Part shown: piece by piece, positions 1 to 32,844 of the stretch | Layout of the letters: every line of letters starts with the position of its first letter | How positions within the stretch are numbered: position 1 is the first letter of the stretch | Assembly: GCA_040768745.1 (NCBI GenBank) | Contig: JAXGMI010000001.1 | Location: 928,001-992,000, forward strand | Reading direction: 5' to 3' | DNA from: Desulfomicrobium sp. | GTDB lineage: Bacteria > Desulfobacterota > Desulfovibrionia > Desulfovibrionales > Desulfomicrobiaceae | Length of the DNA stretch: 64,000 bases | Program-made: the position numbers and the translations under genes | The notes under the pieces: generated by a model | Seen by the model: the letters and a program-made list of their open reading frames with translations, nothing else | The model's database searches: none | What the model was told of the DNA's origin: nothing

Positions 1-546
1 GGCCTTCATGTCGTTGTCGTGGAATTCGCGCTCAAAGGTCTGGGTGTCGGTCTTGATCCCGTACAGAAGGGCCGTGGCCAGGAGCTTTCCCGGCCGCAGC
101 CCGAGGTTGTAGAGATACTCGGTCAGGATGGTCGAATTGGACCCGTATTCGGACACGATTTCCACGTAGTCAGCATCTACGGGCGTGCCCGCCACCTTGG
201 GATGGTGGTCGATGACCAGAGAAAAACGAAACGAGGCGAACTCGGGATGATGATGGGGCTGTGAATCGACCAGGGCAAAGCGGTCATACTGCGCGGCCAG
301 AAGCGGAGTCAGCTTCTTGGTCTGAATGCGCAGAAGGCGGATCATGGCCAGATTGTCCGGCCGGGTGATCTCGTTCACATGGGCAATACCCACCTGATCC
401 ACCCGTCCGGCCAGAATGCGCTTCAGGGCCATCGCCGAGGCCAGGGCATCGGGGTCGGCATTGATGAGAATCAGCCACCGCTCGTTCTTGTTCAACAACT
501 CTTGGAGCTTGACCAGCTTCGGATCGAGCTTGCGAAAGTAGGCCAT
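1..546 (-). CDS. DHH-family phosphoesterase (NrnA-like), 3' end truncated by the window edge
   Basis: Manual translation from ATG at 546: MAYFRKLDPK...INADPDALASA...FALVDSQP...VIDHHP...LYGIKTDT. Contains the DxD, D and DHH motifs. Absent from the ORF track because it has no stop in the window. Confidence 0.85.
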   Translation of the reverse strand, partial: MAYFRKLDPKLVKLQELLNKNERWLILINADPDALASAMALKRILAGRVDQVGIAHVNEITRPDNLAMIRLLRIQTKKLTPLLAAQYDRFALVDSQPHHHPEFASFRFSLVIDHHPKVAGTPVDADYVEIVSEYGSNSTILTEYLYNLGLRPGKLLATALLYGIKTDTQTFEREFHDNDMKA

Positions 547-553
547 GACCCTC

Positions 554-1069
554 TCACTTGAATTTTTTGGCCAAACCGGCAACCACTAAATACACGCTTG
601 CGCTGACCCTGGCAATTTCACGGTTGAGCTGTCCCAGGTTGCGGACAAAAGTGCGCATGGGGCCGTCCAGGGCAAGCGGACCCAGACCCATCTCCGTGGA
701 TACCAGAATGAGCCGCGGACCTCTCCAGCCCTCCAGCACCTCCAGCAGGTCAGCCCCTCGCGCCTGCCTTTGCGGCTCCAGGTCCAGGTTGTGCATGACC
801 GAAAACATCCAGAAATCAAGGCTGTCCACCAGAATGCCGCCAGCCCGGACCGACAGGTCCAGCAACACCTCGGGCAGTTCCGTGTCGACCTCCACGATTT
901 CGATTTTCCTGTCCCTGTTCAAACGGTGATCCTGAATCTGAGCCCGAAAGGCCTGGTCCCGGGACCTGCCTGTGGCTACCATGACCCAGGGTCGGGGTGT
1001 CTGGGACAAAAGCTCCAGCCCGAAATCCGATTTGCCGGACTTGTTCCCGCCCAGGATCAGCTCAACCAT
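554..1069 (-). CDS. cobU: Bifunctional adenosylcobinamide kinase / cobinamide-phosphate guanylyltransferase
   Basis: LILGGNKSGKS P-loop, I..HR..R, LVDSL, VSTEMGLG, LG.LN..IA, VYLVVAGL. Confidence 0.9.
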   Translation of the reverse strand: MVELILGGNKSGKSDFGLELLSQTPRPWVMVATGRSRDQAFRAQIQDHRLNRDRKIEIVEVDTELPEVLLDLSVRAGGILVDSLDFWMFSVMHNLDLEPQRQARGADLLEVLEGWRGPRLILVSTEMGLGPLALDGPMRTFVRNLGQLNREIARVSASVYLVVAGLAKKFK

Positions 1070-1781
1070 GGTCCATGCCCCATTCGGAAAGCCAGCTTTT
1101 CAAAAGCATGAGTGAATTCTCCAGGCTGGGCAGGTCAAACACCTCCACCACCAGCGCACAGCCCCGCCCCAGACGGGCCAGAATATCATGCAGCAGCGAG
1201 GGGTCGGGCAGGCAGTCCAGCCCGAGATGCCCTGAGGAATTCTCCCCACCATAGACGTGCAGGATGCGGATCCGTTCGAAAATCCCCGGCAAATCCAGGA
1301 TATGCTCCTGCCCGTAGCTGACAAGATGACCCAGATCCAGACACACACCCAGGTCCAGATCCGTGATTTCCCGCCAGAGCGCGGCCAGATCATCCTGCCG
1401 CGTATTTTCCAGGCAAAGCCGGGCAGAGATCTCTGGACGTAAAGAAAGCAGGGCTTCAAGCTGTGCTGCTCCGGGCGGATGCAGCACATAGTGGCGAGGG
1501 CGCAAAAAGGCAATTTTCTCCTCCAGGGCCAGGATCGTTGCGGACACACCCGCCGCGCCGCCATCCCAGGGCAAATCCAGGGGGAGATGGACATGGAAGG
1601 AAAGCCCCAGGCTTGGCAGGTCCAACGGCAGATCTCTCTGGTCGTAGGCCAGACAACCCGCTGTCTCCAGGAACATGAGCCCTACCTCGTCGACGCGCCC
1701 GGCCAGAACCCGGCAATTGGGTCCCACCCGATCAGCAATGACGCAGGATGGAGCGGCCAAACGAAAAGTTTTACCGGTCAA
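1062..1781 (-). CDS. cbiR: AP-endonuclease-2/TIM-barrel protein, probable cobamide-remodelling phosphodiesterase (CbiR-like)
   Basis: FRLAAPS, DEVGLMFLE, FHVHLPLDL, VLHP, LEN, CLDLGHL, LHV...H..L, VVEVF. Lies directly upstream of cobU. TTG start at 1781 overlaps the upstream stop (TTGA). Confidence 0.7.
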   Translation of the reverse strand: MTGKTFRLAAPSCVIADRVGPNCRVLAGRVDEVGLMFLETAGCLAYDQRDLPLDLPSLGLSFHVHLPLDLPWDGGAAGVSATILALEEKIAFLRPRHYVLHPPGAAQLEALLSLRPEISARLCLENTRQDDLAALWREITDLDLGVCLDLGHLVSYGQEHILDLPGIFERIRILHVYGGENSSGHLGLDCLPDPSLLHDILARLGRGCALVVEVFDLPSLENSLMLLKSWLSEWGMDHG

Positions 1782-4700
1782 AACAGGCTCAGCTGCCGTT
1801 CGCTGCGGCGGACATGACGCTTGAGGGCGCTTCTGCGGATCATGTCCTGGGGGAGTTTGCGGACCAGGGAGGACAGGCTCAGTTTGAGGGTTTTGCCGAA
1901 GACCCTGCGACTCGCACAATGGCTCATGAAGAGCATGGTTTTGGCCCGGGTCAGGCCTACATAGAAAAGACGGCGCTCTTCCTCCAGGTCCAGTCCTCCG
2001 TCCGCTCCGGGCTTGCCCAGCAGCATGTCCATCCCGGCAAAAGGCAGAATTCCCTCTTCCAGGCCCGGCAGAAAGACCGCCTCGAACTCCAGGCCCTTGG
2101 CCCCGTGCATGGTCATGACCTGCACCTTCTGGGCCTTGGCCCGGACTGCGCAGAGTTCCGTCTCCAGGCGAACCATATTCATCAGGCCACGCCAGCCCGC
2201 GCAGGTCTGAAAGGCCTTGACCAGATCCAGAAACGGCTGGCTCTTCCAGAAGAGTTCGTCAAAAGGCGCTGTTTGCCCCAGGAAGACGGCCATGCCCAGG
2301 GGTCCCTTTTCCACCACGCTTTCGGGGCAGGCTGGGATTTCCTCTCCAGGCGTGTCGGGCATGCCCAGGACATTGCCGGCAATGCGCAGCAGGATATCGA
2401 CCCTGGCGTCCATGAAGAACGGCTCCTCCTCCGGCACGGACACAGGAATTCCTGCCCCGTGCAGGGCTTTTGCAATGGGAGGGATGAGGGCCTTGAGCCG
2501 AACCAGAACGGCAATGTCACCTGGGGCCAAAGTTCCGCCTTCCTGCGCATCGGCCTGCCAGTGTCCGGTTCCGCCCAGCAGTTCACGGATCCGCCCCGCG
2601 ATCCAGTCTGCCTCCTGTTCCGCGGTCTGGGCCTCGAACAGGAAAATGGAGGCGGCATGGCTTTTCTGGGCCACCAGGGTTTCCTTGTCCGTCAGCAGCC
2701 TTGCGCTCAAACCCAGAATCTGCTGGGCCGAACGGTAGTTGTGGATGAGCCGGATGCGCTTTAATTCCGGCCAGCTGACCTTGAGCCTGGCCTCCACATC
2801 GCGGCTCGCCCCGCGAAAGGCGTAAATCGCCTGATTGGGGTCGCCGATGGCGAAAAATCCGTGTCCGTTCCTGGGGGCCAGACCCATGACCAGGCCAAGC
2901 TGCAGGGGTGAAAGGTCCTGGACTTCGTCCACCAGGACATGATCAAAGGCCGGGCTGTACTGTCCGAGTTCCAGGTGCTCGAGCCAGAACTCCAACAAGT
3001 CGGTGTAGTCCACCAGATTGAAACGGGCCTTGTGGTCCAGATAGCGCCTGGTCTGCTCACCCGGAACCCGCACCCCGCGTTCACGGGCCAGGGATTGCTC
3101 GTTCCAGGCCGTTTTCAAGGCCTTGCCCGCAAGTCCGGGGTTGGCCGCCCCGAAAAGGCGGCGGGCACTTTCCTCCGAAAGAAGGGTGGGCGGCTCGCCC
3201 ATGACCTGGGTCCAGTACTCCAGGGCCAGGGCGTGCAGGGTGTCTGCCTTGGGCACGTCAGCGCCAGGAGGCAGCATGTGCTGAAGGCGGTCTTTGAGTT
3301 CCCTGGCCGCCTTGCGGGTAAAGGTCAGGATGATCATGCGTCCGGGCTCGCCCCCTTGTTCCACCAGATGCCGAACCCGGCCCGTGAGGGTCTGGGTCTT
3401 GCCCGTGCCCGGGCCGGCCAAAACCAGGACAGGACCTGGGCCGGCCAGAATGGCCGCGAGTTGCATCTCGTTGGGCGCGGTTGTTTCGCTTTCTCCCTTT
3501 TCCTCCAGCGCCGCAAAGGGTCTGCGCCATCGCTGCCCGTCCTCCTCGGTGTTCCTGCCCGGACCCTGGGCCAGGGCCAGCATACGGCCATGCCTGAATT
3601 CCAGCAGTTCCTGGGGGCTGAACATGGATATGCGTCCGAACTCCCCGTCATAGCCTGAATGCCGATGAACCATACCTTGGCGCATCCTGCGCACTGCTTC
3701 GCCCAGGATCCTGGACGACCGGCTCAGGTCCTCCACGGGAATGACCCGCAATATGCTCAACTCCGAACTGAACTGGCGCAGCAGGTCGCTGTACATGCGC
3801 AGCACTTTCTTGGTTCCGGGCGCTGCTCCCAGGATTTCACCCAGCATTTCTGGCAGGGGAACCAGGGAACAGTACCCTGGATGCTTCGCCGGCCGGAGGG
3901 GTGAGGGCCGGTCCGCAAGCTCGAAGACACGGTTCAGGACCCCGACGGTCAGGGGCTTTGCGCAGACAGGACAGACCCCTCCATGACGTCTGGTCTCCCG
4001 TGGTTCCAGCATGACCTTGCACTTTCTATGTCCGTCGAGATGGTATTTCCCCTCTTCGGGATAGAATTCCAGAGTCCCTTGGTACAGCGTTCCCCCATCC
4101 TCACGGCGCAGGGCCTGCCGCAGTCCCGTATAGGAGATGTCCCCGGAAAAGATCGTGGCCTCGCGGCCCAGCTTTTCCCCGGAATGGGCATCAGAATTGG
4201 ACACCAGGGTGAAACGATCCAGGGCGCTCCACAGCCAGTTCATCTCCGGGTCCGACGACAGGCCGGTTTCCAGGGCAAAAATCTCGGTACTCAGATCTCC
4301 GAAACATTCCTCCACCGTATCGAATCCGGATTTGGATCCGAACAGGGAAAACCACGGGGTCCAGATATGAGCCGGAATGAGGAAAGCCAAGGGATCTGTT
4401 TCCAGAACCATTTCCAGAAGATCGCGGGCATCAAGACCAAGGATGGGTCGGCCGTCCGAGGCGAGATTGCCGACTTCGGCCAGACGGGTCGTGAAGCGTT
4501 TGGCAGCGTCCAGACCCGGCATGAAGACCAGGTTGTGGATTTTCCTGACCTTGCCGCCTTTTTTGTAGATGGAACTGATCTCAGTGCACAGGATGAATCG
4601 CGTGCCCCTGGACAGGTCAGTGCCTCCGTACCAGGGCAATTCCTGCTCCAGGGCCCTTTCGTCCTGCAGCCGAAACAGACCGTTTTCCTCAGCCACAAGC

Positions 4701-4867
4701 TGACTTTCAATGATTTCCATCCATCCCGGATGGGTGAAATCTCCGGTGGCCAGAAGGTCGATGCCCTTGACAGCGGCCCAGGCCGCCAGGTTCCGCGGCG
4801 TCAGATTCTTGCTGGTGGCTCGCGAAAACTTGGAATGGATGTGCACGTCGGCGATAAACGTCTTCAC
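1778..4867 (-). CDS. Endonuclease Q-like PHP/Zn-finger nuclease fused to a UvrD/Rep SF1A helicase, with a C-terminal clamp-binding motif
   Basis: N-terminus: DVHIHSKFS, TGDFTHP, PAHIWTP, ETGLSSD, NSDAHS, GKYHLDGHRKC..CPVC. C-terminus: AGPGTGKT, TFTRKAA, LVDEVQD, GDPNQAIY.FRGA, NYRS, TMHGAKGLEF, EERRLFYVGLTRAK. Ends in QLSLF. Confidence 0.9.
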   Translation of the reverse strand: MKTFIADVHIHSKFSRATSKNLTPRNLAAWAAVKGIDLLATGDFTHPGWMEIIESQLVAEENGLFRLQDERALEQELPWYGGTDLSRGTRFILCTEISSIYKKGGKVRKIHNLVFMPGLDAAKRFTTRLAEVGNLASDGRPILGLDARDLLEMVLETDPLAFLIPAHIWTPWFSLFGSKSGFDTVEECFGDLSTEIFALETGLSSDPEMNWLWSALDRFTLVSNSDAHSGEKLGREATIFSGDISYTGLRQALRREDGGTLYQGTLEFYPEEGKYHLDGHRKCKVMLEPRETRRHGGVCPVCAKPLTVGVLNRVFELADRPSPLRPAKHPGYCSLVPLPEMLGEILGAAPGTKKVLRMYSDLLRQFSSELSILRVIPVEDLSRSSRILGEAVRRMRQGMVHRHSGYDGEFGRISMFSPQELLEFRHGRMLALAQGPGRNTEEDGQRWRRPFAALEEKGESETTAPNEMQLAAILAGPGPVLVLAGPGTGKTQTLTGRVRHLVEQGGEPGRMIILTFTRKAARELKDRLQHMLPPGADVPKADTLHALALEYWTQVMGEPPTLLSEESARRLFGAANPGLAGKALKTAWNEQSLARERGVRVPGEQTRRYLDHKARFNLVDYTDLLEFWLEHLELGQYSPAFDHVLVDEVQDLSPLQLGLVMGLAPRNGHGFFAIGDPNQAIYAFRGASRDVEARLKVSWPELKRIRLIHNYRSAQQILGLSARLLTDKETLVAQKSHAASIFLFEAQTAEQEADWIAGRIRELLGGTGHWQADAQEGGTLAPGDIAVLVRLKALIPPIAKALHGAGIPVSVPEEEPFFMDARVDILLRIAGNVLGMPDTPGEEIPACPESVVEKGPLGMAVFLGQTAPFDELFWKSQPFLDLVKAFQTCAGWRGLMNMVRLETELCAVRAKAQKVQVMTMHGAKGLEFEAVFLPGLEEGILPFAGMDMLLGKPGADGGLDLEEERRLFYVGLTRAKTMLFMSHCASRRVFGKTLKLSLSSLVRKLPQDMIRRSALKRHVRRSERQLSLF

Positions 4868-8660: not shown

Positions 8661-10898
8661 ATGGACCTTATGAAGATGCCGGCGGACCTGGCTGATGTTT
8701 CCCTCAATCCCAATGCCCAGGTAGTTCTCAGGAAGCGTTACCTGCGCAAGGGACTGGACGGAAAGCCCATCGAAACAGTCAAGGAAATGTTCTGGAGAGT
8801 GGCGGCAGGCATTGCATCCATGGAGAAGAACTACCAGCAGTCGCCATGGACAACCGAGAAACTGGCCCGTGCTTTCTATTCCATGATGACCCGATACGAT
8901 TTTCTGCCCAATTCACCGACACTGATGAACGCCGGCACGGATCTGGGTCAATTGGCGGCATGTTTCGTCCTCCCCGTGGGCGACTCCATGGATGAGATTT
9001 TTGATGCGGTGAAGCACGCTGCCCTGATCCATAAGTCAGGTGGAGGAACAGGTTTTTCCTTTTCCCGACTGAGGCCCAAGGACAGTCGTGTAGGTTCCAC
9101 CGGAGGAGTCGCCTCGGGTCCCATTTCGTTTTTGAAGATATTCAACACTGCGACGGAACAGGTCAAACAGGGTGGAACCCGGCGCGGGGCCAACATGGGT
9201 ATTCTCCGCGTCGATCATCCCGACATCATGGAATTTATCCGAGCCAAGGAACGAGAGGGAGATCTCAACAATTTCAATCTGTCCGTGGCCCTGACCGAAA
9301 AATTCATGCAGGCGGTGGAGAATGACGAGGAATACCCCCTCGTGGCCCCTCATACCAAGGAAATCATCGAATACCTGAAAGCCCGCGAGGTGTTTGACCT
9401 GCTTGTCCGCAAGGCATGGGAGAGCGGGGATCCCGGTATCATCTTCATCGACCGCATCAACCGCGACAACCCCAATCCCGACCAGGGGGAGATCGAAAGC
9501 ACCAATCCCTGCGGTGAGCAGCCCCTGCTGCCCTACGAGGCATGCAACCTCGGGTCCATCAATTTGGCCCGTTTTGTCCTGCAGAAGGACGAAAGCCTGG
9601 AAGTGGACTGGGACCGGTTGCGCGAAATCGTGCATCTGAGCGTGCGGTTCCTGGACAACGTCATCGATGCATCGGAATATCCCCTGCAGCGCATCACCGA
9701 CACGGTGCACAATAACCGCAAGATAGGATTGGGGATCATGGGCTGGGCTGATCTGCTCTATCAGCTCAAACTGCCCTACAACAGCCGCCGGGCCATCGCC
9801 CTGGCTGAGAAAATGATGGATTTCATCCAGAAGGAATCCAAATCCGCATCCAAGGAACTGGCCCGCGAACGGGGTGCGTTTCCGTCGTATGCGACCTCGA
9901 TCTATCAGGAACAAAACCTCGGGCCGTATCGTCACTCCACGACAACGACCATCGCGCCCACCGGGACTCTGTCCATCATCGCTGGTTGTTCCTCGGGCAT
10001 TGAACCGCTCTTTGCCCTTTGTTTTGTGCGTCAGGTCATGGATGGTGAAAAGCTGACCGAGGCCAACAGCCATTTCGTGCAGGCCCTCCATGAAGCAGGG
10101 TGCTTCACTGACAAGCTCATGGCCGAGGTGGTGGAAAAAGGCTCCATCCAGTCCATGGGGTATTTGCCTGACGAATTGCGAGCCATTTATGTGACGGCCA
10201 TGGACATCGAGCCGGTCTGGCATCTCAAAATGCAGGCTGCTTTCCAGAAGTACACGGACAACGCCGTGTCCAAGACTGTGAACCTGCCCAACTCCGCCAC
10301 CCAGGAAGATATCTTCAAAATCTATTGGATGGCCTATGAGGAAGGCTGCAAGGGCGTGACCGTGTACCGGGATGGATGCAAAAGCGTGCAGGTACTGTGC
10401 ACCGGTGACGGCAAGAAAGAGGAATCCACAAAGGAAGAGGAACGTCGTCCCATGGATCGTCCGGATATCGTGTACGGGTTTACCCAGAAGGTGCGCACCG
10501 GACTTGGCGACCTGTATCTGACCGTGAACGAACTCGACGGCCGGCCATTCGAAGTATTCACCACCATCGGTCGGTCAGGGCGTTCCATCACGGCCAAGGC
10601 CGAGGCCATCGGTCGTTTGGTGTCTCTGGCCTTGCGCTCAGGGGTGCATGTGCGGGAAATTGTCAAACAGCTTAAAGGCATCGGCGGTGAGCATCCGGTT
10701 TTTCAGAAAAAAGGTATGCTCCTCTCCATCCCCGACGCGGTGTCCTGGGTGCTGGAAAACCGCTATCTGCAGGGTGCGTCCCCGCGCAATCTCGACAAGT
10801 CCCTGTCCAAGACCGAATGCCCTGAGTGCTCCACGGAACTGGTTTTTCAGGAGGGTTGTTTTGTCTGTCCGTCGTGCGGGTTCACCAAATGCGGATGA
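8661..10898 (+). CDS. nrdJ: Class II (adenosylcobalamin-dependent) ribonucleotide reductase with C-terminal TSCPD-like domain and Zn ribbon
   Basis: FLPNSPTLMNAG, QLAACFV, GGGTGF.FS.LRP, QGG.RRGANMG, TNPCGEQ, EACNLGSINL, TIAPTGT, SKTVN, YRDG, C-terminal CPEC...CPSCG..KCG. Confidence 0.95.
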   Translation: MDLMKMPADLADVSLNPNAQVVLRKRYLRKGLDGKPIETVKEMFWRVAAGIASMEKNYQQSPWTTEKLARAFYSMMTRYDFLPNSPTLMNAGTDLGQLAACFVLPVGDSMDEIFDAVKHAALIHKSGGGTGFSFSRLRPKDSRVGSTGGVASGPISFLKIFNTATEQVKQGGTRRGANMGILRVDHPDIMEFIRAKEREGDLNNFNLSVALTEKFMQAVENDEEYPLVAPHTKEIIEYLKAREVFDLLVRKAWESGDPGIIFIDRINRDNPNPDQGEIESTNPCGEQPLLPYEACNLGSINLARFVLQKDESLEVDWDRLREIVHLSVRFLDNVIDASEYPLQRITDTVHNNRKIGLGIMGWADLLYQLKLPYNSRRAIALAEKMMDFIQKESKSASKELARERGAFPSYATSIYQEQNLGPYRHSTTTTIAPTGTLSIIAGCSSGIEPLFALCFVRQVMDGEKLTEANSHFVQALHEAGCFTDKLMAEVVEKGSIQSMGYLPDELRAIYVTAMDIEPVWHLKMQAAFQKYTDNAVSKTVNLPNSATQEDIFKIYWMAYEEGCKGVTVYRDGCKSVQVLCTGDGKKEESTKEEERRPMDRPDIVYGFTQKVRTGLGDLYLTVNELDGRPFEVFTTIGRSGRSITAKAEAIGRLVSLALRSGVHVREIVKQLKGIGGEHPVFQKKGMLLSIPDAVSWVLENRYLQGASPRNLDKSLSKTECPECSTELVFQEGCFVCPSCGFTKCG

Positions 10899-25361: not shown

Positions 25362-26654
25362 GTGAACAAGGACGGTGCCGAGGATCGCATTGGCGAAGCC
25401 CTGCTGAAAGCCTTCGCCGCCGAGGATGCGGACAAGTTGCGCCAGGCCCTGAGCCTAACACTGGAAAACGAGGTGGTGCTGGTCCGCTTTCCGCACCGAT
25501 TTTTTGCGGATTGGTTTCAACACAATGGGCAGGACCGCTTCGAGCAGGCCATGGTTGGAGTGGGCCTTGGCGTCGCCTATGGATTCCGGGATCAGGACCG
25601 GGAACGTCCCGCCCAGGAGCCCAGGCTGGCCGGTCAGACCTTGCCCTTTGGGGCAGAATTCATTTTCGATAATTTTCTGGTCAACAACAAGAATGCGTTC
25701 CCCTTGGCTTCGGCCCAGGAAGTGGCCCAGAGTCAGAACGCACACCTCAATCCCTTTGTCCTCTGCGGTGAAAGCGGTTCGGGGAAGTCTTTCCTGTTGC
25801 GGGCCATCGCCAACGTCAAGAGCGAACAAGGACCACAGGACGTATTCGTGGCCGGGATCGAGGAGATGCATGAGCTTTTCACCTCTCGTCGAGACGCCCG
25901 CAAATTTCTCATGTCCAAGAATTTTCTCGGCGTGGACGATCTGCAGGACATCGCCAGATACCAGTACCTGCAAAACGAATTGATAGTCATTTTCGATCAC
26001 TGCCATGACCGGCGAAAGCAGATGGCCTTTGCCTGCGCCGGAAAGATGGCGGGATACACGTTTCTGCTCCCCAAGCTCAAGTCACGGTTGGAGTGGGGCC
26101 TGATCGTCACCCTGAAGGCTCCGGACCTGGATATCCGCACCAGGTATGCCATGTCCCGGGGCCGGGAGCTGCAGATGGATCTGTCCAAGGAGAGGATCCT
26201 GCTCTTGGCCCATCGCTTCAGCGATTTGCGCAACCTCGAGGGCTGCCTCTTGAAACTCTGGGCCTACCGGGAACTGGTCCGTGACCAGATCAGTGACGAC
26301 GAATTTGATAATATTTTGAATTATTTGGATGATAGACCCCGTGTTTCACTGACTGCCGAGCAGATCATGGACACGGTCTGCGCCCAGATGGGGGTCGGTC
26401 GCGAGGAGCTTTTGTCTTCAGGTCGCAAGCACGAGACGGTTTTCGCCCGGCAGGTGGCCATGTTTTTGTGCCGCAGGCATTTGGGTTTGTCCTTCCCTGA
26501 GTTGGGGAAAACCTTTGGGGGACGCGACCATTCCACGGTTCTGTACAGTTGCAGAAAAATAGAACAATTACAGCGCGATGATAAATCAGTGAAAAGCATG
26601 CTACATGCCCTGTCCGAAAAATGTCTGGTCATGAACGAGAAAGGTGTTGCCTAA
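25362..26654 (+). CDS. dnaA: Chromosomal replication initiator DnaA (divergent copy)
   Basis: FDNFLV...N..P, NPFVLCGESGSGKS, VDDLQ, LKSRLEWGL, RNLEG; domain IV ARQVAMFL...LSFPELG..FGGRDHSTV. Upstream of dnaN-gyrB-gyrA. GTG start uncertain. Confidence 0.88.
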   Translation: MNKDGAEDRIGEALLKAFAAEDADKLRQALSLTLENEVVLVRFPHRFFADWFQHNGQDRFEQAMVGVGLGVAYGFRDQDRERPAQEPRLAGQTLPFGAEFIFDNFLVNNKNAFPLASAQEVAQSQNAHLNPFVLCGESGSGKSFLLRAIANVKSEQGPQDVFVAGIEEMHELFTSRRDARKFLMSKNFLGVDDLQDIARYQYLQNELIVIFDHCHDRRKQMAFACAGKMAGYTFLLPKLKSRLEWGLIVTLKAPDLDIRTRYAMSRGRELQMDLSKERILLLAHRFSDLRNLEGCLLKLWAYRELVRDQISDDEFDNILNYLDDRPRVSLTAEQIMDTVCAQMGVGREELLSSGRKHETVFARQVAMFLCRRHLGLSFPELGKTFGGRDHSTVLYSCRKIEQLQRDDKSVKSMLHALSEKCLVMNEKGVA

Positions 26655-26672
26655 ACGGAAAAGGAGTTGGCG

Positions 26673-30265
<3,593 letters not shown>

Positions 30266-30297
30266 CGCGAACCCTATAGCTTCTTCACTGAACCGAG

Positions 30298-32844
30298 GTG
30301 GATGTGTCCGATATCAGTATCGAGAAAGAACTGCAGAAATCCTACCTGGAATACTCCCTGAGCGTCATCATCGGTCGGGCCATTCCGGATGTGCGCGACG
30401 GTCTGAAACCTGTTCACCGGCGCATCCTTTTCGCCATGCACGAGCTCGGCAACACCTACAACCGGGCCTACAAGAAATCCGCCCGTGTGGTCGGCGATGT
30501 CATCGGCAAGTTCCATCCTCACGGCGATTCGGCCGTGTACGATGCCTTGGTGCGCATGGCCCAGGATTTCAACATGCGTGACCCCCTGGTGGACGGGCAG
30601 GGCAATTTCGGCTCCATTGACGGGGACGCCGCAGCGGCCATGCGGTACACCGAAGTGCGCATGTCCAAGCTGGCCGGCTCTTTTCTGGCAGACATCGAAA
30701 AGGACACGGTGGAGTTCCGGCCCAACTATGACAACTCCCTGCTGGAGCCCGAGGTCCTGCCCACCAAGGTCCCCAATCTCCTGGTCAATGGCTCGTCGGG
30801 TATCGCTGTGGGCATGGCCACCAACATTCCGCCTCACAACCTGGGCGAGGTGGTGGAAGGCACCCTGCACCTGCTGGACAACCCGCAGGCCTCCATCGAC
30901 GAGCTGATGCGCTACATCAAGGCCCCCGACTTCCCGACCGGCGCGCTCCTGTACGGCAAGTCCGGTATCCGCGAGGCCTACCACACCGGCCGCGGCTCCG
31001 TGCGCATCCGCTCGCGCATTGAGATCGAGAAGCGCAAAGGCGACCTGGAATCCATCGTCGTCAGGGAAATTCCCTACGCCCTGAACAAATCCACTCTGGT
31101 GGAAAAGATAGCCATGCTCGTCAACGAACGTAAGATCGAGGGCATCTCGGACCTGCGTGACGAGTCGGACATGAAGGGCATCCGCATCGTCATGGATCTG
31201 AAGAAGGGCGTGTTCTCGGACGTGGTCATCAACCAGCTCTTCAAGTACACCTCGCTGGAAACGAGCTTTGGCATCAACATGATGGCCGTGGTCAGCAACC
31301 GGCCCCAGCTGCTGAACCTCAAGCAGGTTCTGGAGCACTTCCTGGATTACCGGCGAGAGGTCGTCATCAGGCGCTCGCGTTTCGACCTGAAGAAAGCCCA
31401 GCACCGCGCCCACATTCTCGAAGGCCTGCGCATAGCCCTTGATTTTATCGACGAGGTGGTCAGCCTTATTCGGGCCTCGCGCACGCCGCAGGAAGCAAAG
31501 GACAGGTTGCGCGAGCGTTTCGGCCTGTCCGAGATTCAGGCCCAGGCCATCCTGGACATGCGCCTGCAGCGCCTGACCAACCTGGAACGCGAAAAGCTGC
31601 TGGAAGAATACGCCGAACTTCTGAAACAGATCGAATACCTGACCAGCGTTATCGAAAACCCGGACGTGCTCAAAGCCGTGGTCCGCCAGGAGCTGGAAGA
31701 TCTGCGCGACACCTTCGCCAGCCCCCGCAAGTCAGAAATCCTGGCCCACGATCCCGACTCCATCGATATCGAGGACATCATTCCGGACGAGCCAGTGGTC
31801 ATCACCCTGTCCCGCAACGGGTACCTGAAACGGACCAGCCTGGACAACTACCGCCAGCAACGGCGTGGCGGCACAGGCATCACCGGCGTGCAGGTGGCGG
31901 AAGAGGATTTCATCACCTCCATTCTGACCACCTCCAACCACCAGTACATGAACCTGTTCACCAACAAGGGCAGGATGTACCAGATCAAGGTCCATCAGAT
32001 TCCCGAGGGGGGCCGCACGGCAAGGGGCAAGCACGTGGCCAACCTGCTGCCTCTGGACAGCAACGAGTACATCGCTGCGGCCATGACCTGTCGGGACCTG
32101 GACCGTGAAAAATTCTATCTTTTTTATACCCGCCAGGGGGTGGTCAAACGCAGTTCCGTGGAGTTGTACCGCAACATCCGTACTGCGGGTCTCATCGCCC
32201 TGGGCATGCGTGAGGACGACGAACTCATCGGCGTGTGCGAGGTGGAAGAGGACGACGAGATGGTCCTGGTCACGGTGGACGGGTATTCCATCCGTTTTGC
32301 CTGCGCAGAAGTGCGGGCCATGGGTCGGTCGGCCACCGGCGTCAAGGGCATCGCCCTGCGCAAGGGCGATCAGGTCGTGGCTGGCGTGGTAATCAGCAGG
32401 GACACCAAGCAGGAACTTCTGACCGTAGCCGAGAACGGCTACGGGAAACGGACCCAGGTGGGACAGTTCCGGGCCCAGACGCGTGGCGGCAAGGGTGTCA
32501 TCAATATGCGCATCACCCCCAAAACAGGGAAGGTCGTAGGGGCTATGATGGTCCACCCCACCGACGAGCTCATCCTGTTGACCTCCGGCAGCAAGATCAT
32601 CCGCATCGGCATTGCCAGCATCAGCCTGGTGGGCCGAGCGGCCCAGGGCGTGCGCTTGGTCCGCCTTGAGGACGACCAGACCGTGATCTGCTTTGATCAC
32701 GTGCCGACCGAAACAGCCGAGACGAGCACAACTTCCGGAGGTGGCGTGTTCGAAGAGGGCGGAGGCCTGCTCGACGACACGGCCGATGACGGGTTCCTGG
32801 CCGACGGGTTCAGGGATGGGGGAGATGACGACGAGGAAGGATAG
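30298..32844 (+). CDS. gyrA: DNA gyrase subunit A
   Basis: [33 protein letters not shown], GyrA-box QQRRGGTG, pinwheel repeats, acidic tail. Confidence 0.97.

What the first reader, a model, noticed from the sequence alone, without database searches (positions are those of the whole stretch)
1778..4867. EndoQ-like nuclease fused to a compact UvrD helicase and ending in a beta-clamp motif (QLSLF)
Seen: an intact PHP metal-site set plus a Zn-finger region (GHRKC...CPVC), fused to a roughly 570-aa SF1A helicase carrying all core motifs but shorter than UvrD/PcrA, so 1B/2B appear reduced. The protein ends exactly in QLSLF. Established: EndoQ (Pyrococcus, Bacillus YqxK) nicks 5' of uracil, hypoxanthine and AP sites; the archaeal enzyme binds PCNA; QL[SD]LF is the consensus DnaN-binding motif. 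Inference: a single-chain, clamp-tethered nick-and-unwind excision-repair machine for deaminated bases. I know of no characterisation of such a fusion.
Basis: partly seen in the sequence, partly recalled or inferred. Interest (0 to 1): 0.72.

Follow-up and report, generated by a model that had tools for sequence, protein, structure and literature searches.

The report
EndoQ nuclease–UvrD helicase repair fusion
One gene joins a nuclease of a family that cuts DNA beside deaminated bases to a shortened UvrD-type motor and a sliding-clamp tag; it likely repairs uracil and hypoxanthine in sulfate-reducing bacteria, many of which show no recognisable standard enzyme for that job.

Summary
The 1029-aa ORF joins a full EndoQ (all tested catalytic and pocket residues kept; model vs PfuEndoQ Z 44) to an SF1A helicase with every core motif, and ends in QLSLF. 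The tag is conserved: 42 of 53 complete fused relatives, against 2 of 2341 background ORFs.

It is not new as a family. Long bacterial EndoQs with C-terminal clamp motifs were tabulated in 2016 (PMC4858679, Fig. S1), and this scan met the fusion at least 15 times on other DNA. I found no biochemical study.

This copy adds three things:
- It belongs to a Desulfovibrionales-type clade that lost about 50 residues of the helicase 2B domain and the second, internal clamp motif.
- EndoQ occurs in 101 of 101 genomes sampled from the order; 65 show neither a uracil glycosylase nor EndoV, and polA lies within 10 kb downstream in 59.
- Their ExoIII resembles the archaeal uridine endonuclease Mth212, a rival uracil enzyme.

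The parts
1778..4867 (-). EndoQ-UvrD fusion gene, 1029 aa; its GTG start overlaps the stop of the upstream histidine kinase gene
3587..4867 (-). EndoQ domain, aa 1-427 (PHP barrel, Zn-binding domain, helical domain). Metal and pocket residues H9, H11, E96, H111, R140, H167, W172, G202, L203, S204, D226, H228 correspond to Pfu H8, H10, E76, H84, R114, H139, W144, G169, L170, S171, D193, H195
   Evidence: alignment to 5zb8; each invariant in 95 of 95 sequences; model Z 44.3, rmsd 2.4 over 386 residues
3962..4030 (-). Zn-binding motif H280-x2-C283 ... C299-x2-C302 (His replaces the first Cys of the archaeal C4 site)
   Evidence: His in 93 of 95; the three Cys in 95 of 95
3485..3586 (-). Linker, aa 428-461, with low pLDDT at 441-460. 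The internal Q-x-x-L-F clamp-like motif seen here in other lineages is eroded (RHGRMLAL)
1820..3484 (-). SF1A UvrD/PcrA-type helicase, aa 462-1016: Q motif, I (GPGTGKT), Ia, Ib, II (DEVQD), III, IV (NYRS), IVa, V, VI (EERRLFYVGLTRA) and separation pin; family-specific GGTxH insert in 2A
   Evidence: model vs Deinococcus UvrD 4c30 Z 40.8, rmsd 3.3 over 490 residues
2153..2425 (-). Shortened 2B subdomain (about aa 815-905; limits read from the model). It lacks about 50 residues that carry the PGIG/PGVG motif in long-2B relatives and in the genome's own PcrA
1781..1795 (-). C-terminal QLSLF, the beta-clamp-binding consensus QL[SD]LF, preceded by a basic low-confidence tail
   Evidence: consensus as in PMC4858679 Fig. 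S1
1..1919 (-). Co-directional downstream genes cbiR, cobU and a DHH-family gene; polA follows just outside the window (G000:C1:924938-927490, minus strand)
26673..27827 (+). dnaN (beta clamp), the presumed partner, in the dnaA-dnaN-gyrB-gyrA cluster about 22 kb away; binding not tested
   Evidence: TIGR00663, 151.5 bits, over cut-off

Best explanation
This is a chromosomal core gene whose single chain carries an intact EndoQ nuclease, an intact UvrD-type motor and a clamp-binding consensus, and it likely starts glycosylase-free repair of uracil, hypoxanthine and abasic sites.

Shown here: homology, catalytic residues, motif conservation, distribution and gene neighbourhood.

Inferred steps: (1) QLSLF docks the protein on the beta clamp, as the archaeal enzyme docks on PCNA. 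(2) EndoQ flips the damaged base and nicks 5' of it, leaving a 3'-OH upstream and the lesion at the 5' end of the downstream strand. (3) The 3'-to-5' motor runs on the intact strand and peels off the lesion-bearing strand as a 5' flap; loss of part of the auto-inhibitory 2B domain would let one chain unwind without dimerising. (4) Pol I, encoded three genes further on, extends the 3'-OH and cuts the flap, and ligase seals.

In the many Desulfovibrionales with no detectable UDG or EndoV, it would be a main route for hypoxanthine and would share uracil with an Mth212-like ExoIII.
For: Nuclease: all mutagenesis-defined metal and pocket residues of PfuEndoQ (PMC5961232 passages) are invariant in 95 of 95 aligned homologues, and the fold matches. 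Motor: all SF1A motifs are conserved. Clamp tag: a strict motif lies in the last 14 aa of 42 of 53 complete fused GTDB relatives from many phyla (50 of 53 by a looser pattern), against 2 of 2341 own-genome ORFs and 23 of 72,274 internal windows. PCNA stimulates archaeal EndoQ (PMC4858679 passages). Housekeeping profile: EndoQ in 101 of 101 order genomes, in frames of at least 950 aa in 98; the genome has a separate full PcrA. Repair context: in the order sample UDG-family 35 of 101, EndoV 7 of 101, DUF99 dU-endonuclease 0 of 101, neither UDG nor EndoV 65 of 101, whereas family-4 UDG is in 149 of 161 phylum genomes. polA is co-oriented within 10 kb in 59 of 101, unlinked in 11, and on another contig in 31. 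2B deletion activates monomer helicases (PMC13238157 passages; PMC13646824 abstract).
Against: No activity has been measured for any fused member, as far as my searches reach. TIGR00375 scores 154.7 bits, below its 326.6 cut-off. Two DNA-contact residues differ: Pfu K276 is T in 95 of 95, and R201 is K or N. In the protein's own clade the terminal motif passes in only 40 of 56, and the internal motif is lost. 12 stand-alone EndoQs of the same wider family lack both helicase and terminal motif, so EndoQ can persist without either. The own genome does have a divergent UDG-like gene (24.9 bits), Xth, Nfo and MutS. The order's ExoIII keeps the four Mth212 uracil-recognition residues in 42 of 50 sequences, so uracil repair need not depend on the fusion. 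Across the phylum outside the order, EndoV is not excluded by the fusion (16 of 42 fused, 32 of 71 solo, 22 of 42 without EndoQ). The polA linkage is interrupted by cobamide genes, is absent in one large genus (0 of 24 linked, 20 on other contigs), and may be plain synteny. Only part of 2B is missing, so activation is a guess.
Confidence: 0.6

Rival explanations
1. The nuclease is an EndoQ, but the motor is a translocase rather than a strand-displacing helicase. It scans DNA behind the clamp or strips the product-bound EndoQ off the nick, and Pol I does the strand displacement.
For: PfuEndoQ stays bound after cutting and is predicted to be single-turnover (PMC5961232 passage). SF1A monomers translocate but unwind poorly unless activated. 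The duplex-contacting GIG-type segment of 2B is missing here (its role is recalled, not from a call).
Against: The separation pin and ssDNA-binding motifs are conserved. 2B removal increases unwinding in Rep and UvrD1. The two readings are not exclusive.
Confidence: 0.2
2. The fusion is a back-up. Uracil in these bacteria is handled mainly by an Mth212-like ExoIII or by divergent glycosylases that the profiles miss, and the fusion matters mainly for hypoxanthine, xanthine or AP sites, or has drifted to another lesion.
For: The best PDB match of the genome's ExoIII is Mth212 (3fzi, E 1.8e-92; identity of the entry from PMC6093668). K125, N153, S171 and R209 are kept in 42 of 50 sequences. PF03167 only just detects the genus-specific UDG-like gene.
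Against: The 8 sequences from the largest UDG-less genus have T and K in place of S171 and R209. The M. mazei ExoIII, about as close in the C-terminal half, lacks U-endo activity (PMC1636421 abstract). The EndoQ pocket residues are invariant.
Confidence: 0.12
3. It is an anti-phage nuclease-helicase that attacks uracil- or otherwise base-substituted phage DNA, as suggested for Bacillus EndoQ.
For: A review reports a proposed antiviral role for Bacillus EndoQ and that Ugi does not inhibit it (PMC8307549 passage). The helicase half hits GajB and DRT helicase profiles.
Against: It is single-copy and present in 101 of 101 genomes, with housekeeping neighbours, unlike patchy defence systems. The PADLOC hits shown lie only in the generic helicase half, and no GajA partner is among the adjacent genes I annotated. 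A host clamp tag points to the chromosome.
Confidence: 0.06

Closest known systems
Archaeal endonuclease Q with PCNA (PfuEndoQ PF1551, TkoEndoQ TK0887; PDB 5zb8, 7k30-7k33)
   Same: PHP + Zn + helical fold (Z 44.3), all metal and lesion-pocket residues, and a C-terminal sliding-clamp motif
   Different: Fused to an SF1A helicase; His-Cys3 Zn site; K276 is T; beta-clamp rather than PIP motif; activity untested
Long bacterial EndoQ homologues of Shiraishi et al. 2016, Fig. S1 (e.g. Desulfovibrio sp. X2 WP_020880034, D. vulgaris WP_012612878); probably one of the bacterial families of the 2017 classification (paper not read)
   Same: Same length class (about 945-1245 aa), same terminal QL[SD]LF-type motif, same order of bacteria
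   Different: The passages I read do not name the helicase or test these proteins; the 2B truncation, the loss of the internal motif and the UDG/EndoV scarcity are not mentioned in what I read
Stand-alone bacterial EndoQ
   Same: Same nuclease family; nicking 5' of dU, dI and AP reported
   Different: About 390 aa, no helicase; this protein scores below the TIGR00375 cut-off
UvrD / PcrA / Rep SF1A helicases (PDB 4c30, 2is1, 1pjr, 1uaa)
   Same: All core motifs and fold (Z 36-41)
   Different: 1B about 30 and 2B about 50 residues shorter, no PGIG segment, no C-terminal RNA-polymerase-binding domain, far below the equivalog cut-offs; the genome has a separate PcrA
Glycosylase-free uracil repair of Methanothermobacter thermautotrophicus (Mth212 ExoIII plus EndoQ, no UDG)
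   Same: The same toolkit appears in most sampled Desulfovibrionales: EndoQ, an Mth212-like ExoIII, and no detectable UDG
   Different: Bacterial; EndoQ carries its own motor and clamp tag; neither activity has been measured

Membership tests
Endonuclease Q | PHP domain with the six metal ligands plus R114 and H195 | tested here: met
   each invariant in 95 of 95
Endonuclease Q | Lesion pocket and wedge (H139, W144, G169, L170, S171) | tested here: met
   H167, W172, G202, L203, S204
Endonuclease Q | Zn-binding and C-terminal helical domains; overall fold | tested here: met
   Z 44.3, rmsd 2.4 over 386 residues; the site is His-Cys3, a form also shown for Desulfovibrio in the 2015 EndoQ alignment
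Endonuclease Q | Nicks 5' of dU, dI, dX and AP sites | not testable with these tools
   needs an assay
TIGR00375 equivalog | Score above the curated cut-off of 326.6 bits | tested here: not met
   154.7 bits
SF1A UvrD-like helicase | Motifs Q, I, Ia, Ib, II, III, IV, IVa, V, VI, and the 1A/2A fold | tested here: met
SF1A UvrD-like helicase | 3'-to-5' ATP-dependent translocation and unwinding | not testable with these tools
   inferred from family
UvrD/PcrA/Rep orthologues | Equivalog score, full 2B and C-terminal domain | tested here: not met
   about 200 bits against cut-offs over 900; short 2B; separate PcrA in the genome
Beta-clamp-binding proteins | QL[SD]LF-type motif, conserved, in a flexible terminal position | tested here: met
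Beta-clamp-binding proteins | Physical binding to DnaN | not tested
Gabija / nuclease-helicase defence systems | Cognate partner gene, patchy distribution, defence-island context | tested here: not met
   101 of 101 genomes, housekeeping neighbours, helicase-only PADLOC hits

The most novel reading that the evidence does not exclude
Most Desulfovibrionales have dropped uracil-DNA glycosylases and EndoV and repair deaminated bases by direct strand incision, as some methanogens do. The core enzyme is this one-chain machine: clamp-docked EndoQ nicks, a naturally 2B-truncated and therefore self-active monomeric UvrD displaces the damaged strand, and the neighbouring Pol I finishes. That would supply the missing downstream step of the EndoQ pathway and a bacterial order living without glycosylase-initiated uracil repair.
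Probability: 0.4. Interest if true: 0.75.

Novelty: new variant of a known kind. Interest (0 to 1): 0.52.

Why it matters
What happens after EndoQ nicks is only modelled in the papers I read (Pol/Fen1 or an unnamed helicase; PMC4357722). A natural fusion names a candidate helicase and makes the pathway reconstitutable from four proteins: the fusion, DnaN, Pol I and ligase. Because about two thirds of the sampled order show no UDG or EndoV, knockouts there would escape the redundancy that usually hides such phenotypes. The protein is also a natural test of the idea that 2B auto-inhibits UvrD-family monomers. The limits are that the family is widespread, its clamp tag has been in print since 2016, and its function follows largely from its parts.

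Tried and rejected
- **Clamp complex:** Complex prediction for DnaN (alignment A3) with the last 40 residues was not available. Nothing was folded, so there is no verdict on binding.
- **Literature:** EndoQ+UvrD gave 3 papers, EndoQ+helicase+fused 5, 'endonuclease Q'+helicase 9, TIGR00375 0, D. vulgaris+UvrD+PHP domain 0, Desulfovibrio+cytosine base editing+uracil 0, and Desulfovibrio+UDG+lack 10. Neither the listings nor the passages I read describe the fusion's activity or the UDG loss; most listed papers were not opened. Shiraishi 2017, Shiraishi and Iwai 2020, Shi 2021 and Lucas-Lledo 2011 were not held and may already describe the helicase fusion or the UDG gap.
- **Assembly artefact:** rejected.
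- **Recent transfer or island:** not supported. GC is 0.61 and GC3 0.73, within the range of three neighbours (0.69-0.83).
- **Housekeeping UvrD:** rejected; the genome has a separate PcrA.
- **Phylum-wide exclusion of EndoV by the fusion:** not seen.
- **Expression and operon:** RNA-library contigs cover the gene but cannot show transcription. The promoter scan was at chance level (2 found, 1.9 expected).
- **Other uracil enzymes:** the SMUG2-like family PF16265 is not in the library, so it is untested. At E up to 10, five closed UDG-less genomes gave no PF03167 hit over cut-off; the best was E 0.002. Family-1 ung was not found in 5 of 5. The third HhH-GPD protein of four of five genomes looks MJ1434-like (label recalled; one search gave only sub-cut-off hits), a family reported not to process uracil (PMC2926615 abstract).
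- **Tree:** the careful tree did not finish; the quick tree is used only for the one long, fully supported branch.
Full report
OBSERVATION. Window 1778-4867 (-) is one open frame of 1029 aa ending in QLSLF. Residues 6-423 match Pyrococcus furiosus EndoQ (5zb8, E 7e-47), and the rest matches UvrD families. An AlphaFold2 model from a 95-sequence alignment has mean pLDDT 87.5 and pTM 0.81, with a low-confidence linker at 441-460 and a low-confidence tail. It aligns to PfuEndoQ over residues 2-427 (Z 44.3, rmsd 2.4) and to Deinococcus UvrD over 462-1016 (Z 40.8, rmsd 3.3). A 2495-base contig in public run X15 bridges the junction without gaps (the run may be the assembly's source). Named homologues at 77% identity are Desulfomicrobium, so I read the order as Desulfovibrionales; this is an inference.

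NUCLEASE. By the alignment, the residues shown by mutagenesis to matter in PfuEndoQ (PMC5961232, passages read) map to H9, H11, E96, H111, R140, H167, W172, G202, L203, S204, D226, H228, K274 and Y275. Each is invariant in 95 of 95 aligned homologues. There are three differences. The Zn site is His-Cys3 (His in 93 of 95). Pfu K276 is T in all. R201 is K (66) or N (27). TIGR00375 matches below its cut-off (154.7 against 326.6).

MOTOR. The Q motif, Walker A and B, and motifs Ia, Ib, III, IV, IVa, V and VI with the arginine finger are conserved. The IVa-V span is 131 aa against 180 in the genome's own PcrA (C3:227678-229849), and the 1B span is 75 against 104. The missing roughly 50 residues include the PGIG/PGVG segment kept by long-2B relatives. 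The short form marks a clade of 56 of the 95 aligned sequences (at least 47% identity; median span 131). In a quick helicase tree of 61 rows (34 close homologues left out, own PcrA added) this clade sits on a long branch with SH-aLRT 100. 2B length varies in the other 39 too (104-195). Deleting 2B activates monomeric Rep and mycobacterial UvrD1 (PMC13238157 passages; PMC13646824 abstract). Applying this to a natural partial loss is inference.

CLAMP TAG. Of 121 stored proteins (the query counted twice), 48 end exactly in QLSLF and 84 match a looser pattern. Of 80 GTDB loci, 65 are fused. Among 53 complete ones, 42 have Q-[LMI]-x-[LM]-F in the last 14 aa and 50 a looser form. The 27 rows left out were 12 fused rows that were cut, broken or missed my motif-VI filter, and 15 without a helicase in frame (1 split, 2 at locus ends, 12 stand-alone, none with the motif). 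Background is 2 of 2341 six-frame ORFs of the own genome, one being the query, and 23 of 72,274 internal windows. Against this, only 40 of 56 in the protein's own clade pass. A second, internal Q-x-x-L-F right after EndoQ, seen in 28 of 39 other members, is in 0 of 56. I noted this internal motif, before reading the scan's earlier notes, which also report it.

DISTRIBUTION AND CONTEXT. The family is large: 7908 of 7995 scored candidates, a count that includes helicase-only matches. An EndoQ domain was found in 119 of 161 phylum genomes and in 101 of 101 order genomes, 98 of them in frames of at least 950 aa. One exception is a 1.6-Mb genome with no helicase half. In the window the gene lies in a co-directional run: histidine kinase, fusion, cbiR, cobU, DHH gene, then polA just outside. 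polA is co-oriented within 10 kb downstream in 59 of 101 genomes from all seven families, unlinked in 11, and on another contig in 31; one large genus shows 0 of 24 linked. In 15 of the 80 GTDB loci, largely Desulfobacterales, the gene lies a few kb from dnaN instead. I ran no synteny control, so this is weak support.

REPAIR REPERTOIRE. In the order sample PF03167 (UDG superfamily) was found in 34 of 101 genomes (28 over cut-off), and one more was found with the genus-specific homologue as query. EndoV was found in 7 and the DUF99 dU-endonuclease in 0. 65 of 101 had neither UDG nor EndoV. In the phylum sample family-4 UDG is in 149 of 161, but in 0 of the 6 order members. These are 'not found in those searched' results among related genomes, and the profile only just detects the divergent UDG-like gene of the window's own genus (24.9 bits against 24.3). 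The own genome lacks ung, family-4 UDG and EndoV, but has that UDG-like gene, Xth, Nfo, MutS and three HhH-GPD proteins. Against a sole role for the fusion, the ExoIII's best PDB match is Mth212 (3fzi, E 1.8e-92), the archaeal uridine endonuclease (PMC1636421 abstract). The four residues named for uracil recognition (PMC6202378 passage) are kept in 42 of 50 sequences examined, out of 98 found; the 8 exceptions are all from the largest UDG-less genus. Outside the order, EndoV presence does not track the fusion.

MECHANISM. EndoQ cuts 5' of the lesion and leaves a 5'-phosphate and 3'-OH. SF1A motors move 3' to 5' (abstract listing). A motor on the intact strand therefore displaces the strand that carries the lesion at its 5' end, which suits Pol I's polymerase and 5' nuclease. 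This polarity fit, the invariant active sites, the clamp tag and the core distribution give my best reading (0.6). The rivals are a translocase or recycling role (0.2), a back-up or altered substrate range (0.12) and anti-phage defence (0.06).

PRIOR KNOWLEDGE. Shiraishi 2016 (PMC4858679; passages and the whole supplement read) already lists putative beta-clamp motifs in 44 bacterial EndoQ homologues, 34 of them with the motif at residue 941-1244, including five Desulfovibrio. Shiraishi 2015 (PMC4357722; passages, one section and part of one supplement; another supplement could not be searched) includes a Desulfovibrio homologue and models a helicase step after the nick. Miyazono 2018 states that EndoQs were divided into three families by domain organisation in 2017; that paper was not held and may name the helicase. 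My searches found no experimental study of a fused member and no note of UDG loss in this order. The scan's own notes hold at least 15 findings of the fusion in other genomes. A word search adding Desulfovibrionales, glycosylase absence and polA returned none.

VERDICT. The feature is real and correctly described. It is a variant of a catalogued but untested EndoQ class. Its own marks are the truncated 2B, the single clamp tag, and its core status in an order that mostly shows no UDG or EndoV. That last point makes the open question of what follows the EndoQ nick directly testable. Interest 0.52.

Noticed in passing
G000:C1:570821-571594 (locus L094:1471-2241, minus strand; outside the window): The genome's ExoIII is closest to archaeal Mth212 and keeps K125, N153, S171 and R209; 42 of 50 order sequences examined do too. 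It is a candidate bacterial uridine endonuclease, an activity so far reported only in archaea and weakly in eukaryotes.
   Followed up: partly
L093:1426-2103 (G000:C1:1023711-1024385, minus strand): A divergent UDG-fold-like protein (PF03167, 24.9 bits; no NCBIfam or PDB match), found in 17 of 17 genomes of the genus and in none of the other 84 order genomes.
   Followed up: partly
window 25362-32844: dnaA-dnaN-gyrB-gyrA cluster. DnaA scores below its cut-off (234 against 344 bits) and DnaN is divergent: 51% to an order relative but only 21-26% to other phylum members.
   Followed up: no
L020, L027, L038, L039, L044, L048, L050, L051, L055, L063, L068, L070, L080 and two more: In many Desulfobacterales-type loci the EndoQ gene lies within a few kb of dnaN-gyrB on the opposite strand.
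   Followed up: partly
window about 2560-2580 (aa 764-772, LGGTGHWQAD): A family-specific insert in helicase domain 2A (G765 in 93 of 95), absent from UvrD and PcrA; function unexplained, possibly a contact to EndoQ or DNA.
   Followed up: no
L216 / L017 (G131:C6:105688-106959): A 1.6-Mb genome of the same family keeps EndoQ near polA but has lost the helicase half and the terminal motif.
   Followed up: yes
window 554-1919: The cobamide-remodelling genes cbiR (NF041277, over cut-off) and cobU sit between the fusion and polA; a B12-dependent ribonucleotide reductase lies at 8661-10898.
   Followed up: no
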